From NCBI RefSeq assembly GCF_044647545.1, contig NZ_CP172818.1: DNA of 64,000 bases. One strand, written 5' to 3'. Shown piece after piece: positions 39,987 to 43,554 of this stretch. The notes beneath the pieces were generated by a model. The model searched no databases, was not told where the DNA came from, and worked only from the letters and a program-made list of their open reading frames with translations. The translations under genes were made by a program, and so were the position numbers. Numbering within the stretch: position 1 is the first letter of the stretch; every line of letters starts with the position of its first letter. This DNA comes from Escherichia coli. Lineage in GTDB: Bacteria; Pseudomonadota; Gammaproteobacteria; Enterobacterales; Enterobacteriaceae.

Positions 39987-40342
39987 GCACTCTCCTTGAG
40001 TTTTATGCAGGTGTTAATTAGCGGGCAATTGTACCCTGGTTAAGCCTCGGGTGGCAGCATCAGGTCTTGTATGGAAAAGCATATCTTTGTAAAGCGGAGG
40101 TAATTGCTGGCCTTCAGACGTGGGCAAATCGCGGCAAGTGGCGATCGAGTTAATATTTGCGTAGCGAAAATATTTAAAAATTGATTTGAATCACATTAAC
40201 CAGGATTCTTAATGCAACTTCTAAATTAATCCAGATCAATAAATGGTGAATTATCATATGTAATGTGATCTATGTAGGATCATTTGTTACTCCAATGTAG
40301 GTATATTCGTCACGTTTTTATAACCATAACGACGGAGCGGAT

Positions 40343-40981
40343 ATGAAAAAGTTAACAGTGGCGGCTTTGGCAGTAACAACTCTTCTCTCTGGCAGTGCCT
40401 TTGCGCATGAAGCAGGCGAATTTTTTATGCGTGCAGGTTCTGCAACCGTACGTCCAACAGAAGGTGCTGGTGGTACGTTAGGAAGTCTGGGTGGATTCAG
40501 CGTGACCAATAACACGCAACTGGGCCTGACGTTTACTTATATGGCGACCGATAACATTGGTGTGGAATTGCTGGCAGCGACGCCGTTCCGCCATAAAATC
40601 GGCACCCGGGCGACCGGCGATATTGCAACCGTTCATCATCTGCCGCCAACACTGATGGCGCAGTGGTATTTTGGTGATGCCAGCAGCAAATTCCGTCCTT
40701 ACGTTGGGGCAGGTATTAACTACACCACCTTCTTTGATAATGGATTTAACGATCATGGCAAAGAGGCGGGGCTTTCCGATCTCAGTCTGAAAGATTCCTG
40801 GGGAGCTGCCGGGCAGGTGGGGGTTGATTATCTGATTAACCGTGACTGGTTGGTTAACATGTCAGTGTGGTACATGGATATCGATACCACCGCCAATTAT
40901 AAACTGGGCGGTGCACAGCAACACGATAGCGTACGCCTCGATCCGTGGGTGTTTATGTTCTCAGCAGGATATCGTTTTTAA
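40343..40981 (+). CDS. ompW: Outer-membrane protein OmpW (212 aa)
   Basis: 212-aa ORF MKKLTVAALAVTTLLSGSAFAHEAGEFFMRAGSATVRPTEG... with signal peptide and C-terminal aromatic residue. Confidence 0.95.
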   Translation: MKKLTVAALAVTTLLSGSAFAHEAGEFFMRAGSATVRPTEGAGGTLGSLGGFSVTNNTQLGLTFTYMATDNIGVELLAATPFRHKIGTRATGDIATVHHLPPTLMAQWYFGDASSKFRPYVGAGINYTTFFDNGFNDHGKEAGLSDLSLKDSWGAAGQVGVDYLINRDWLVNMSVWYMDIDTTANYKLGGAQQHDSVRLDPWVFMFSAGYRF

Positions 40982-40995
40982 TTCCGCACAAAAAC

Positions 40996-41016
40996 GACCC
41001 CGTAATATACGGGGTC
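40996..41016 (-). terminator. Hairpin terminator downstream of yciE (end of the yciGFE operon), shared with ompW
   Basis: gaccccgtatattacggggtc (minus sense) followed by gtttttgtg; lies between the convergent ompW and yciE stops. Confidence 0.6.
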
Positions 41017-41040
41017 AATAAGGACATGGTATAAAGGGTA

Positions 41041-41547
41041 TTATTTCTTCGCTTCTACGCCATCAGTTTCAGAGCGAATTAAAAATTTCTCAGTTGTTTG
41101 CGGAATATGCTGAATCAGCCAGTCGGCCATTTGCTTTTCCTCATTTAAAATCGCTTCGATGGTTGGAATTGAAGCTGTATCACCGGCATTTTTTGCTGCT
41201 GCTAAGAGTGAGGTGTAACAGGCGATTTCAAATTGCTCGAAGACATATCCGCTAATAGAGCCTTTGACTATTTCATCAGAAGGGAATATACCACCGATTG
41301 ACTGCCCAAGCGCAGCCATTTTACTCATGGAATCTTTAATGACTGAACGTGAAATGTCATTACGATCAAGAATAGTTTCCAGTTGAACAATCGGTTTTTG
41401 GTTTCAATAAGATGTTGTTCAATACGAGCGCGTAGTTCAGGATAATTATCTATACGGCTGGCCATGGATTAAAGCATAGATTCGGCTTGCTTTTCCATTG
41501 CGTGGGCGTCACGTAACCAGTCATGATAATGTTCAATACGATTCATG
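41041..41547 (-). pseudogene. yciE: yciE (ferritin-like DUF892 stress protein) disrupted by a premature TAA and a 1-bp frameshift
   Basis: From the ATG at 41545-41547 the minus strand reads MNRIEHYHDWLRDAHAMEKQAESML then TAA (plus 41469-41471); the same frame continues SMASRIDNYPELRARIEQHLIETKN and then shifts by -1 near plus 41391-41394 into the 95-aa C-terminal ORF 41041-41328 (MSKMAALGQS...VEAKK). Repairing both changes gives exactly 168 aa, the expected YciE length. Confidence 0.8.
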
Positions 41548-41591
41548 AAAATGTCCTCTTTATAAAATGACTAAAAGTTAAAGTTCATATT

Positions 41592-42092
41592 TCAGGCTTT
41601 ATTTTCGGCTTTCTTATTTACGTTATTAAGGGCCAGATCAGTTAGTTTGATGTCGGTGGCCTTTTCTTCTTCAAGAGTTTCTTTCAGAAGCTTAGCTGCT
41701 TTACGGTAACCTAATTGTTCAGCCAGCGTCGCTAATGTCCCGTAACTGGCAATCTCATAATGCTCGACTTTCTGTGCTGCGGCAATCAGTGCGGCATCAC
41801 GCACTTCGTTTTTCTCGGTACTTTCGATGACCTCATTAGCTTCTTCAATAAGACCTTCCATTGCCACACATTTCATGCGCTTAATTTTCAGATTCGATTC
41901 TGATTCCACAACTTGATCAATACGTTCAATCTGTCCATGTGTTTCCTCGAGGTGCGCATGAAAAGCCTGACTTAATTTTTCGTTTGATGTTGCTCTAGCG
42001 AGTTTTGCCAGTGCACGTGTTAATTGTTTTTCTGCACTGTAGGTGTCTGAAAGCAGGTGAATAAATACATCTTCAATGGTCTTCATATTCAT
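41592..42092 (-). CDS. yciF: Ferritin-like stress protein YciF (166 aa)
   Basis: ORF 41592-42140; product MNMKTIEDVFIHLLSDTYSAEKQLTRALAKLARATSNEK... from the ATG at 42092; paralog of YciE. Confidence 0.9.
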   Translation of the reverse strand: MNMKTIEDVFIHLLSDTYSAEKQLTRALAKLARATSNEKLSQAFHAHLEETHGQIERIDQVVESESNLKIKRMKCVAMEGLIEEANEVIESTEKNEVRDAALIAAAQKVEHYEIASYGTLATLAEQLGYRKAAKLLKETLEEEKATDIKLTDLALNNVNKKAENKA

Positions 42093-42178
42093 ATTTTTCT
42101 CCAGTGAAATCACTGCGAGCCATACGGCCCGCAGATGCAATTATCTTTATCAGCTGATATTAATAATGAACGGTGAAT

Positions 42179-42358
42179 CAGGATTTTCCTGATTTATTAC
42201 CACCGCTTTGTTGACCGCCTTTTTTACCCGCTTCAGATGCGCGTTGCGGATCATTTTTAAAATTACCGCCGCTATGCTGACCGCCTTTACGGCCTGCGTC
42301 GGATGCCTTCTCACGGTCTTCGGCGAAATTTCCTGAACCACCACGATGTTCGGCCATG
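42179..42358 (-). CDS. yciG: KGG-repeat stress protein YciG (59 aa)
   Basis: Manual translation from the ATG at plus 42356-42358: MAEHRGGSGNFAEDREKASDAGRKGGQHSGGNFKNDPQRASEAGKKGGQQSGGNKSGKS. The supplied ORF 42150-42344 is in a different frame. Confidence 0.85.
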
Positions 42359-42714
42359 TTATTTCTCCCGTTGCGTTGCGTTGCGTTGCATTGTTTGATT
42401 AATATGAGTGTTGTGTGTCGACACTCATTAAAATTAGTCGCAAATGAGTATTAGTCAAATTAAGCGTAACGAGAAAAAAGAGGGAAAATATATTTTGAGG
42501 AACATTCTGGATATATTAACAATAGCCTGAGGAATAAGTGACTTAGAGAAAATTATTGATTTTACTGGTGTTATGTTGCGGGATTAATTTGTTTGATTAT
42601 ATTACTGTTGGGCGGAAAAATGACGTAAGTTGACGTTCGACAGGGGTAAACGAAACGGTAGAAAGATAAATATTAAATGAATTTAGGATTTTTCCGGCTT
42701 CGTTAAAGAAAGTT

Positions 42715-42741
42715 AAAATGCCGCCAGCGGAACTGGCGGCT
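42715..42741 (-). terminator. trp operon terminator (trp t)
   Basis: Minus sense AGCCGCCAGTTCCGCTGGCGGCATTTT directly after the trpA stop; matches the classical trp t hairpin. Confidence 0.85.
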
Positions 42742-42747
42742 GTGGGA

Positions 42748-43554
42748 TTAACTGCGCGTCGCCGCTTTCATCGGTTGTACAAAAGCTTTCAGTGCCGCCA
42801 GCATTTTCTCTGGCTCATTAATATGTTGCTCGATGATTTTAACGATGGCCGAACCAGAAATCGCGCCCGCAGCTCCTGCATCAATCGCTGCTTTTACCTG
42901 ATCCGGGGCGGAAATACCAAATCCCTGCAATGGAGGCGCAGCATTGTATTCTTTCAGCTTCGTGACCAGATGATTGAGGGGTAACGCGGCGCGGTTTTCT
43001 GCGCCGGTCACGCCCGCACGTGACAATAAATAGGTGTATCCACGACCGTAGGAGGCTATCTGGCGCAGCAAATCATCGTCGGCATTCGGCGGGCAAATAA
43101 AGATAGGTGCGACATTATGACGCAACGCGGCCTGGCGGAAGGGCGCGGACTCTTCCACGGGCACATCGGCAACCAGCACCGAATCGACGCCGACTTTCTC
43201 GCACTCGGCATAAAACTCATCAATGCCTTTGTTAAACACCAGGTTGGCATACATCAAAAGGCCGATGGGAATGGTCGGGTGCTTCTGGCGAATGAGTGCC
43301 AGCATCTCAAAGCACTGCGCCGGGGTTACTCCCGCCGCAAAAGCACGCAGTGTGGCGTTTTGAATCGTCGGGCCATCCGCCAGTGGGTCGGAGAAGGGGA
43401 TGCCTAACTCCAGCGCGTCAGCACCGGCTTCAATTAGCGTATCGATAATTCTCAACGACTGCTCAATGCCCGGATCACCGAGGGTGACGAAAGGAACGAA
43501 TGCGCCTTCTTTGCGCTCCTTCAACTGGGCAAACAGAGATTCGTAGCGTTCCAT
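42748..43554 (-). CDS. trpA: Tryptophan synthase alpha subunit TrpA (268 aa)
   Basis: 268-aa [65 protein letters not shown]... Confidence 0.97.

What the first reader, a model, noticed from the sequence alone, without database searches (positions are those of the whole stretch)
42179..42358. yciG KGG-repeat protein lies in a frame the ORF track missed
The supplied minus-strand ORF 42150-42344 (64 aa) is a shadow frame. The real gene, read from the ATG at 42358, encodes a 59-aa Gly/Lys-rich protein with repeated (K/R)GG(Q)(Q/H)SGGN units, typical of the RpoS-dependent general-stress KGG family. It heads the yciG-yciF-yciE operon, whose last gene is inactivated in this window.
Basis: partly seen in the sequence, partly recalled or inferred. 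Interest (0 to 1): 0.25.

Follow-up and report, generated by a model that had tools for sequence, protein, structure and literature searches.

The report
yciG small stress-protein gene, correctly read
This is the well-known E. coli gene yciG, encoding a 59-residue glycine/lysine-rich disordered stress protein; the longer overlapping 64-codon frame is an unavoidable by-product of its amino-acid make-up, so the finding is correct but ordinary.

Summary
The gene is window 42178-42357 on the minus strand, with its ATG at 42357. Translating the stated 42179-42358 gives 10 stops.

- **Identity.** The 59-aa product matches Pfam KGG (PF10685, E 7.9e-18, two repeats). It is identical to K-12 YciG (b1259) and RefSeq WP_000807651.1.
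- **Protein evidence.** Its mass without Met (5867.79 Da) matches a published top-down measurement of YciG (5867.78 Da).
- **Why it was missed.** 59 aa is below the ORF lister's default 60-aa cut-off.
- **The 64-aa ORF is a shadow.** YciG has T at codon position 2 only in M1, F11 and F33, so the +1 frame stays stop-free in 100% of 20,000 synonymous recodings. Against 7 homologues, 157 of 175 substitutions fall on yciG third positions. Amino-acid identity is 90-96% in the yciG frame and 44-65% in the +1 frame.
- **Promoter and operon.** A sigma-S-type -10 (CTAnnnTTA) lies 66-86 nt upstream of the ATG in all 9 loci compared. The yciG-yciF-yciE order is confirmed, and yciE carries a stop codon plus a 1-nt deletion.

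Side observations: a (GCAAC)n repeat in the leader with 2 to 8 copies, a conserved yciG-yciF hairpin, and deletion of yciG in Nissle 1917. Already known; low interest.

The parts
42178..42357 (-). yciG coding sequence (59 codons plus TGA), ATG at 42357-42355
   Evidence: ORF list; Pfam KGG E 7.9e-18; RefSeq CDS WP_000807651.1 at the same position in DNA-identical strains; protein identical to K-12 b1259, with one synonymous difference; predicted mass matches published top-down MS
42268..42333 (-). KGG repeat 1 (residues 9-30, GNFAEDREKASDAGRKGGQHSG)
   Evidence: Best Pfam stretch covers residues 10-30; 14/22 identical to repeat 2
42202..42267 (-). KGG repeat 2 (residues 31-52, GNFKNDPQRASEAGKKGGQQSG)
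   Evidence: Second PF10685 stretch (only the first stretch, residues 10-30, was printed, so these boundaries come from the internal repeat comparison); the most conserved part of the family alignment
42150..42344 (-). 64-codon shadow ORF in the +1 frame of yciG; not a gene
   Evidence: No family hit above any cut-off. The frame is stop-free in 100% of 20,000 synonymous recodings. Its translation is only 44-65% conserved against 90-96% for yciG, and 157/175 substitutions fall on yciG codon position 3
42364..42369 (-). Shine-Dalgarno GGGAGA; the GGAG core ends 7 nt before the ATG
   Evidence: Sequence; GAG is invariant in the 7-locus upstream alignment
42370..42389 (-). (GCAAC)x4 pentanucleotide repeat in the predicted leader (TRF span 42369-42393)
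   Evidence: TRF. K-12 has 2 copies. Copy number in complete E. coli genomes ranges from 2 to 8
42415..42424 (-). Perfect palindrome GTGTCGACAC at the predicted transcript start; possible regulator site (inferred)
   Evidence: Sequence; identical in Salmonella, and the CGAC core is kept in 6 of the 7 loci aligned (GAC in all 7; the E. coli second copy reads TGAC)
42428..42437 (-). Predicted sigma-S-type extended -10: C(-13) TAATTT TAA. Predicted +1 near 42424, giving a leader of about 67 nt
   Evidence: CTAnnnTTA occurs 66-86 nt upstream of the ATG in all 9 yciG/ymdF/STM14_1829-type loci; the chance rate is 0.026 per 220 nt. The start site is inferred, not mapped
42453..42458 (-). Predicted -35 TTGACT, 16 nt from the -10
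   Evidence: TTGAC sits about 16 nt upstream of the -10 hexamer in 7 of the 9 loci, preceded by AT in 6 of them
42113..42134 (-). Conserved 9-bp hairpin between yciG and yciF (CTGCGGGCC-GTAT-GGCTCGCAG); likely attenuator or stabiliser
   Evidence: Folded in 6 loci. All 9 pairs are kept in 6 sequences, 2 of them through changes on both sides. It is followed by a T-run in the Salmonella locus, the Klebsiella locus and locus L008, but not here
41592..42092 (-). yciF (DUF892, ferritin-like), second gene of the operon
   Evidence: Pfam DUF892 E 4.7e-52; RefSeq annotation
41041..41546 (-). yciE pseudogene: TAA at 41471-41469 (codon 26) and a 1-nt deletion between 41393 and 41392
   Evidence: Alignment to K-12; RefSeq note 'frameshifted; internal stop'; the exact 96-nt double-lesion haplotype occurs in 84 of 5426 genomes
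40995..41017 (-). Terminator-like hairpin with T-run after yciE; the operon end
   Evidence: Terminator scan
42720..42740 (-). Terminator-like hairpin after trpA; upstream boundary of the yciG control region
   Evidence: Terminator scan

Best explanation
Window 42178-42357 (minus strand) is yciG, the first gene of the yciG-yciF-yciE operon of E. coli. It encodes a 59-residue, very hydrophilic, Gly/Lys-rich protein made of two 22-residue KGG repeats.

Shown here: the frame, the family, the identity with K-12 YciG, purifying selection on this frame and not on the overlapping one, and the operon layout.

Inferred from conserved sequence: transcription from a sigma-S-type promoter (TTGACT, 16 nt, then C-TAATTT-TAA) starting near 42424. 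This would give a leader of about 67 nt that contains a (GCAAC)4 repeat and a good Shine-Dalgarno. A conserved hairpin after yciG probably makes yciG more abundant than yciF and yciE.

From the literature: the protein is made in stationary phase and under stress, under RpoS control. It behaves as an intrinsically disordered 'hydrophilin'. Together with its paralogue YmdF it contributes redundantly to acid and heat tolerance, and it affects flagellar motility in Salmonella.

The most likely mode of action is inferred, not shown. YciG would be an abundant, unfolded, highly hydrated polypeptide that shields or transiently binds other proteins, rather than an enzyme.

The 64-codon ORF at 42150-42344 is a shadow. 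A protein with almost no codons that have T at position 2 cannot generate stops in its +1 frame.
For: - **Family and annotation.** Pfam KGG at 64.8 bits against a cut-off of 20.4, two stretches. RefSeq CDS yciG, named 'general stress protein' or 'con-10 family general stress protein', sits at the same coordinates in DNA-identical strains. The protein is identical to K-12 b1259.
- **Protein detected.** Top-down MS found YciG without Met at 5867.78 Da (PMC5594050); the value computed here is 5867.79 Da, -2.0 ppm. LC-MS peptides distinguish YciG, YmdF and STM14_1829 in Salmonella (PMC5437024).
- **Selection on the frame.** 12, 6 and 157 substitutions fall at codon positions 1, 2 and 3. Amino-acid identity is 90-96% in this frame and 44-65% in the +1 frame. 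The +1 frame is stop-free in 100% of synonymous recodings.
- **Promoter.** CTAnnnTTA is conserved in 9 of 9 loci, 66-86 nt upstream of the ATG.
- **Operon.** The order yciG, DUF892, DUF892 (then Mn-catalase in most other loci) recurs in the Salmonella (L009), Klebsiella (L007) and Enterobacter (L010) loci, in locus L008 and in a second E. coli copy.
- **Disorder.** Gly 23.7%, GRAVY -1.67. AlphaFold2 gives mean pLDDT 60.9 and pTM 0.24. No PDB relative was found.
- **Function and regulation from papers.** RpoS dependence, disorder, and acid, heat and motility phenotypes (PMC7161692; bioRxiv 10.64898/2026.04.09.717482). A bacterial two-hybrid interaction with YhjH in S. Paratyphi A (bioRxiv 10.64898/2026.06.04.730116). 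Activation by McbR/YncC at the yciG promoter (PMC7705038).
Against: Nothing contradicts the identification. The weak points all concern mechanism and regulation.

- The transcription start is predicted, not mapped. The generic sigma-70 scan finds no promoter upstream.
- NCBIfam gave no model hit for the 59-aa protein.
- Single yciG deletions have little or no phenotype in Salmonella, and the motility reports conflict between strains.
- The operon is dispensable in E. coli. yciE is broken here. Nissle 1917 lacks yciG and the first 9 codons of yciF. A paper held here calls the operon H-NS-repressed (bioRxiv 10.1101/2025.05.13.653802), and the title of Beraud et al. 2010 attributes differential regulation of the locus to H-NS; that paper was not readable here.
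Confidence: 0.97

Rival explanations
1. The 64-aa ORF at 42150-42344 is the real gene, or a second overlapping gene (dual coding).
For: It is open and GTG-started. The +1 frame is also open in 8 of the 9 homologous sequences examined.
Against: Openness is forced by YciG's composition: 100% of synonymous recodings keep the frame open. Its translation is poorly conserved, at 44-65%. No family hit exceeds a cut-off. Substitutions fall on what would be its second codon positions. The observed intact mass fits YciG, not this frame. No Shine-Dalgarno-like purine run precedes the GTG in the sequence read.
Confidence: 0.01
2. yciG is intact here but is a silent, decaying remnant in this strain. The operon would be transcriptionally silenced and drifting towards loss, with no current function.
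For: yciE is a pseudogene here. yciG and the start of yciF are deleted in Nissle 1917. About 690 of 5426 complete genomes have no match to the locus. The control region has 36% GC against about 50% for the window, the kind of DNA that H-NS binds. A paper held here calls the operon H-NS-repressed.
Against: The yciG protein is identical to K-12 despite about 2% DNA divergence in the neighbouring genes. Third-position substitutions dominate across genera. The promoter, the Shine-Dalgarno and the hairpin are intact. YciG protein has been detected in E. coli BL21 colonies.
Confidence: 0.1
3. YciG is a nucleotide-binding protein that acts through a Walker A motif (GGNKSGKS, residues 52-59), as suggested in the Pfam description and in PMC9262955.
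For: The pattern GxxxxGK[ST] is literally present at residues 52-59. Two papers mention it.
Against: The pattern sits at the very C-terminus of a protein predicted to be disordered (pLDDT below 50 for residues 56-59). No strand or helix flanks it. It occurs only in the E. coli-type tail: 27 of 120 clusters have it, and the orthologues from the Salmonella, Klebsiella and Enterobacter loci do not.
Confidence: 0.03

Closest known systems
E. coli K-12 YciG (b1259, UniProt P21361)
   Same: 100% identical protein, with one synonymous nucleotide difference. Same neighbours: trpA upstream, then yciF, yciE and ompW.
   Different: The leader has 4 GCAAC units instead of 2. The downstream yciE is a pseudogene here.
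Salmonella yciGFE-katN operon
   Same: Same position after trpA. The same CTAATTTTAA -10 and GTGTCGACAC palindrome. The yciG proteins are 94% identical over the first 49 residues. The same hairpin follows yciG.
   Different: Salmonella keeps a fourth gene, the Mn-catalase katN, between yciE and ompW. Its YciG has a different C-terminal tail (…QNSHGGRKSDNS) with no Walker-like pattern.
Paralogues YmdF and STM14_1829/SEN1538 (KGG family, PF10685; Pseudomonas PA2146)
   Same: Same size and two-repeat architecture, 90-94% identical over the first 49 residues in the examples examined (Pluralibacter YmdF-type L011 and Salmonella STM14_1829-type L004). The same CTAnnnTTA motif lies at a similar distance upstream. 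RpoS dependence is reported for all of them.
   Different: The paralogues are monocistronic and lie elsewhere in the genome. They are not followed by DUF892 genes.
Hydrophilins and LEA-like disordered stress proteins (e.g. Neurospora con-10, B. subtilis GsiB; these two names are from memory and from RefSeq's 'con-10 family' label)
   Same: High glycine content, strong hydrophilicity, repeats, stress induction and lack of a fixed fold.
   Different: Protection of cellular components by YciG itself has not been demonstrated. The genetic phenotypes are weak and redundant.

Membership tests
KGG repeat family (Pfam PF10685) | Profile match above the curated gathering score | tested here: met
   64.8 bits against a cut-off of 20.4, E 7.9e-18, two stretches. 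All 120 listed homologues carry PF10685.
KGG repeat family (Pfam PF10685) | Tandem repeats, each ending in (K/R)KGG | tested here: met
   Two 22-residue repeats, 14/22 identical. RKGG occurs at residues 23-26 and KKGG at 45-48.
YciG orthologue (E. coli b1259) | Sequence identity and conserved position between trpA and yciF | tested here: met
   Identical protein, same neighbours, same RefSeq accession WP_000807651.1.
Hydrophilins (Garay-Arroyo et al. 2000, as cited in PMC5437024; thresholds of Gly >6% and hydrophilicity index >1 are from memory) | High glycine content and high hydrophilicity | tested here: met
   Gly 23.7%, GRAVY -1.67. YciG is named a hydrophilin in PMC5437024.
Intrinsically disordered proteins | No stable fold | tested here: inconclusive
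   The prediction is consistent with disorder: AlphaFold2 mean pLDDT 60.9, pTM 0.24, and only two low-confidence helices. No PDB relative was found. Experimental confirmation is reported second-hand for the Salmonella proteins (PMC7161692).
RpoS (sigma-S) regulon | Sigma-S-type promoter: C at -13, T(-12) A(-11), T(-7), and TAA at -6 to -4 (consensus from memory) | tested here: met
   C-TAATTT-TAA at 42437-42428. The pattern CTAnnnTTA is conserved in 9 of 9 loci. This is sequence evidence only.
RpoS (sigma-S) regulon | Expression lost in an rpoS mutant | not testable with these tools
   Reported for yciG in Salmonella and E. coli (PMC7161692; PMC5437024).
yciGFE operon | Three co-oriented genes with short gaps and a conserved order | tested here: met
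   The gaps are 85 and 45 nt. The order is conserved in 5 other loci. On this strand, terminator-like sites lie only before yciG and after yciE.
yciGFE operon | All three genes intact | tested here: not met
   yciE has a premature TAA and a frameshift.
P-loop NTPases (Walker A) | A conserved GxxxxGK[ST] loop between a strand and a helix of a folded domain | tested here: not met
   The pattern is at the extreme C-terminus, in a low-confidence region. It is absent from the orthologues outside the E. coli-type tail.

The most novel reading that the evidence does not exclude
The (GCAAC)n repeat in the predicted yciG leader varies from 2 to 8 copies among complete E. coli genomes and has 4 copies here. 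It could be a lineage-level tuning knob for yciG translation or mRNA stability, working by changing the length of an unstructured CA-rich leader just upstream of the Shine-Dalgarno. Alongside the yciE pseudogene and the deletion of yciG in Nissle 1917, this would mean that different E. coli lineages are remodelling this sigma-S stress operon in different ways.
Probability: 0.1. Interest if true: 0.3.

Novelty: already known. Interest (0 to 1): 0.06.

Why it matters
It matters mainly as quality control. A real, expressed 59-aa gene falls one residue below a 60-aa ORF cut-off, while a longer meaningless frame over the same DNA passes it.

The general lesson can be reused. For very hydrophilic proteins with few Leu, Ile, Val or Met residues, the +1 frame cannot contain stops, so a long shadow ORF is guaranteed and carries no evidential weight.

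Biologically this is a textbook sigma-S stress gene. The side observations are of modest interest to people working on strain variation in the general stress response: decay of the operon in different E. coli lineages, a leader microsatellite, and a conserved hairpin between cistrons.

Tried and rejected
- **Stated coordinates.** Translating 42179-42358(-) literally gives 10 stops, so the coordinates are off by one.
- **Generic promoter scan.** The sigma-70 scan finds no site upstream of yciG. The sigma-S-type site emerged only from cross-species alignment.
- **Rfam.** On 40900-42800 the only match is a sub-threshold sroD-like hit (21.9 bits against a gathering score of 50, E 0.23) over the trpA terminator. 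I treat it as chance.
- **NCBIfam.** No model matched the 59-aa protein.
- **PDB sequence search.** No relative was found. I did not run a fold search because the AlphaFold model has low confidence.
- **Leader folding.** With 1 to 8 GCAAC units, the predicted accessibility of the Shine-Dalgarno to AUG region changes without trend (0.64-0.79). No structural mechanism for the repeat is supported.
- **Papers not held.** The three papers most relevant to promoter mapping and disorder could not be read: Beraud et al. 2010 (PMC3101850), J Bacteriol 2019 (PMC6304668) and Weber et al. 2005 (PMC1063999). What I say about them rests on their titles, on second-hand citation, or on memory, and is marked as such.
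- **Repeat copy counts.** Exact counts per copy number could not be extracted. They are estimated from BLAST identity bands and are approximate.

Full report
**1. What is in the sequence**

On the minus strand an ATG lies at 42357-42355. It is preceded by GGGAGA (42369-42364). The frame runs for 59 codons to a TGA that ends at 42178.

Translated literally, they give a frame with 10 stops.

The correct translation is MAEHRGGSGNFAEDREKASDAGRKGGQHSGGNFKNDPQRASEAGKKGGQQSGGNKSGKS. It consists of:
- 8 N-terminal residues;
- two 22-residue repeats that are 14/22 identical and end in RKGGQHSG and KKGGQQSG;
- a 7-residue tail.

The protein is 23.7% Gly and 11.9% Lys, with GRAVY -1.67 and pI 9.9.

The 64-codon GTG-started ORF at 42150-42344 also exists, in the +1 frame. 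The ORF lister shows both ORFs at min_aa=30. Its default minimum is 60 aa, which explains why a 59-aa gene was missing from the first-stage track while the 64-aa shadow was present.

**2. Which frame is real**

- **Family hits.** The 59-aa product matches Pfam KGG (PF10685) at 64.8 bits against a gathering score of 20.4 (E 7.9e-18, two stretches). The 64-aa product has only sub-threshold noise.
- **Annotation.** The DNA of 40900-42760 is 100% identical to many complete E. coli chromosomes. RefSeq annotates exactly this ORF there as yciG (WP_000807651.1), named 'general stress protein' or 'con-10 family general stress protein'.
- **K-12.** b1259 encodes the identical protein, with one synonymous difference.
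- **Substitution pattern.** I compared the first 49 codons with seven non-identical homologues, plus K-12, which is identical over this stretch and adds no differences. Their loci are:
  - a second E. coli copy (L005);
  - a Klebsiella locus (L007);
  - an Enterobacter locus (L010);
  - an unnamed enterobacterial contig (L008);
  - Salmonella yciG (L009);
  - a Salmonella STM14_1829-type paralogue (L004);
  - a Pluralibacter ymdF-type gene (L011).

  Differences fall 12, 6 and 157 at codon positions 1, 2 and 3. Amino-acid identity is 90-96% in the yciG frame and 44-65% in the +1 frame.
- **Protein mass.** Published top-down mass spectrometry of E. coli colonies identified YciG without its initiator Met at 5867.78 Da (PMC5594050). 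The window translation gives 5867.79 Da monoisotopic, -2.0 ppm. The alternative frame would give 6976 or 7107 Da.
- **Peptides.** LC-MS peptides distinguishing YciG from its paralogues are reported for Salmonella (PMC5437024).

**3. Why the shadow ORF exists**

A stop in the +1 frame requires a T at the second position of a codon in the real frame. YciG has T there only in M1, F11 and F33, and none of these can produce TAA, TAG or TGA in this context. Accordingly, the +1 frame was stop-free in all 20,000 random synonymous recodings. The +2 frame was stop-free in only 0.24% of them.

The +1 frame is also open in 8 of the 9 homologous sequences examined. So the shadow ORF is a necessary consequence of a hydrophilic composition with almost no aliphatic residues, and it carries no evidential weight.

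One consequence can be seen in the databases. Several 68-70-aa 'proteins' consist of the YciG N-terminus fused to the shadow-frame tail (…VVINQANPDSPLIINIS). These are frameshifted reads or alleles that run on instead of terminating.

**4. Promoter and leader**

The generic sigma-70 scan finds nothing upstream of yciG. Aligning 200 nt upstream of the ATG from 7 operon-type loci (mean column identity 54%) leaves few invariant blocks. These are TTGAC-like, CTA…TTA, GAC (CGAC in 6 of the 7) and the Shine-Dalgarno.

The pattern CTAnnnTTA occurs 66-86 nt upstream of the ATG in all 9 loci, including the two paralogue types. Its background rate is 0.026 per 220 nt.

In the window the elements are:
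- -35 TTGACT at 42458-42453;
- a 16-nt spacer ending in C at 42437;
- TAATTT at 42436-42431;
- TAA at 42430-42428.

C at -13, T(-12)A(-11), T(-7) and TAA at -6 to -4 are the features of sigma-S-selective promoters. That consensus is from my own knowledge.

The predicted start is near 42424, at a perfect palindrome GTGTCGACAC (42424-42415) that is identical in Salmonella. This start is an inference and has not been mapped.

RpoS dependence of yciG is reported in PMC7161692 and PMC5437024. Activation by McbR/YncC binding at the yciG promoter is stated in PMC7705038. H-NS repression is stated in bioRxiv 10.1101/2025.05.13.653802. The control region has 36% GC against 50% for the window, which fits H-NS binding.

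**5. Operon**

- yciF (41592-42092, DUF892, E 4.7e-52) follows yciG after 85 nt. yciE (41041-41546) follows yciF after 45 nt.
- On this strand, terminator-like sites occur only after trpA (42740-42720) and after yciE (41017-40995).
- The order KGG, DUF892, DUF892 recurs in the Salmonella, Klebsiella and Enterobacter loci and in a second E. coli copy, in each case followed by an Mn-catalase gene. It also recurs in locus L008, which lacks the catalase.
- yciE is inactivated here by GAA->TAA at codon 26 and by a 1-nt deletion. RefSeq marks it 'frameshifted; internal stop'. The exact 96-nt double-lesion haplotype is present in 84 of 5426 complete genomes.

**6. How it most likely works**

- **Shown.** This is a small, repeat-built, extremely hydrophilic protein under purifying selection, behind a conserved sigma-S-type promoter.
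- **Predicted.** It has no stable fold. AlphaFold2 with a 21-sequence alignment gives mean pLDDT 60.9 and pTM 0.24, with only two low-confidence helices, one per repeat. No PDB relative exists by sequence.
- **Reported.**
  - YciG, YmdF and STM14_1829 are intrinsically disordered and RpoS-dependent.
  - They contribute redundantly to growth at pH 4.5, and YciG is linked to heat and acid tolerance.
  - Motility effects depend on the strain.
  - A two-hybrid screen found that YciG binds the c-di-GMP phosphodiesterase YhjH in S. Paratyphi A but not in S. Typhimurium.
- **Inferred.** I judge it most likely (about 0.6, given that the identification is correct) that YciG acts as an abundant, unfolded, hydrated shield or weak multivalent binder during stationary phase and acid or heat stress, and not as an enzyme.

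The 'Walker A' reading of residues 52-59 is unlikely. The pattern is at the disordered C-terminus and is confined to the E. coli-type tail (27 of 120 clusters). It is absent from the orthologues in the Salmonella, Klebsiella and Enterobacter loci.

**7. Things seen in passing**

(a) The leader carries (GCAAC)x4 at 42389-42370, and K-12 has two copies. Among complete genomes:
- two copies predominate (about 4170 of 4371);
- four copies occur in about 126-165 genomes;
- three copies occur in roughly 20-30 and five in roughly 13 to a few dozen;
- six copies are inferred from the length of the matched stretch in four genomes (H125-H128), and eight copies were read directly in strain CFSAN061771.

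Predicted accessibility of the Shine-Dalgarno does not change systematically with copy number.

(b) A 9-bp hairpin at 42134-42113, between yciG and yciF, is conserved in six loci. Two of its pairs are kept through changes on both sides. It is followed by a T-run in the Salmonella locus, the Klebsiella locus and locus L008, but only by TGATTTCA here. It probably attenuates read-through or stabilises the yciG message.

(c) In Nissle 1917 a deletion corresponding to window 42392-42064 removes the repeat, the Shine-Dalgarno, yciG and the first 9 codons of yciF. The promoter and the first 32 nt of the predicted leader remain. About 360 genomes match the locus but not the leader (4735 against 4371), and about 690 have no match at all.

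(d) Many E. coli carry a second yciGFE-katN copy next to phage tail-fibre assembly genes.

Together with the missing katN and the broken yciE, these observations show that the locus is being eroded or remodelled differently in different E. coli lineages.

**8. Verdict**

The finding is correct after a 1-nt shift of the coordinates. It concerns a gene that is annotated, named, detected as a protein and studied. Novelty: already known. Interest is low. The reusable point is the composition rule that guarantees shadow ORFs over hydrophilin genes, together with the hazard of a 60-aa cut-off.

Noticed in passing
window 42370-42389 (TRF span 42369-42393), minus strand: A pentanucleotide repeat (GCAAC)x4 lies in the predicted yciG leader, just upstream of the Shine-Dalgarno. 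K-12 has 2 copies. Complete E. coli genomes show 2 (the great majority), 3, 4, 5 and 8 copies, and 6 by inference from match length. Copy number has no predicted effect on Shine-Dalgarno accessibility.
   Followed up: partly
window 42113-42134, minus strand: A conserved 9-bp hairpin (CTGCGGGCC-GTAT-GGCTCGCAG) lies between yciG and yciF. It is kept in 6 loci from several genera, with 2 pairs changed on both sides. A T-run follows it in some genera but not here. It is probably an attenuator or an mRNA stabiliser.
   Followed up: partly
L012 1810-2081 (Nissle 1917), corresponding to window 42392-42064: Nissle 1917 has a deletion that removes the leader repeat, yciG and the first 9 codons of yciF, while keeping the promoter. 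About 360 complete genomes match the locus but not the yciG leader, and about 690 have no match to the locus at all.
   Followed up: partly
window 41041-41546: The yciE pseudogene carries TAA at codon 26 plus a 1-nt deletion. The exact 96-nt double-lesion haplotype occurs in only 84 of 5426 complete E. coli genomes, fewer than the roughly 126 genomes that share the 4-copy leader allele.
   Followed up: yes
L005 and L006, 4001-6214: Many E. coli carry a second yciG-yciF-yciE-katN copy. Its 60-aa YciG is 88% identical to this one. The copy is flanked by phage tail-fibre and tail-fibre-assembly genes, which suggests prophage-associated carriage.
   Followed up: no
database proteins P0017, P0020, P0023 and others (68-70 aa): These are chimeric 'proteins': the YciG N-terminus joined to the tail of the +1 shadow frame (…VVINQANPDSPLIINIS). 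They are frameshifted alleles or sequencing errors that read on because the +1 frame never stops.
   Followed up: partly
window 42415-42424, minus strand: A perfect 10-bp palindrome GTGTCGACAC sits at the predicted transcription start. It is identical in Salmonella, and the CGAC core is kept in 6 of the 7 loci aligned. It could be a regulator binding site, possibly for McbR/YncC; this was not tested.
   Followed up: no
window about 40014-40103 (from L001 615-704): RefSeq annotates a 90-nt remnant of a YkgJ-family cysteine-cluster gene between yciC and ompW. Salmonella has an intact 134-aa CxxCxxCC gene at that position (L009 7312-7716).
   Followed up: no
window 42715-42769, minus strand: A weak sroD-like Rfam match (21.9 bits against a gathering score of 50, E 0.23) overlaps the trpA terminator hairpin. 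It is most likely chance.
   Followed up: no
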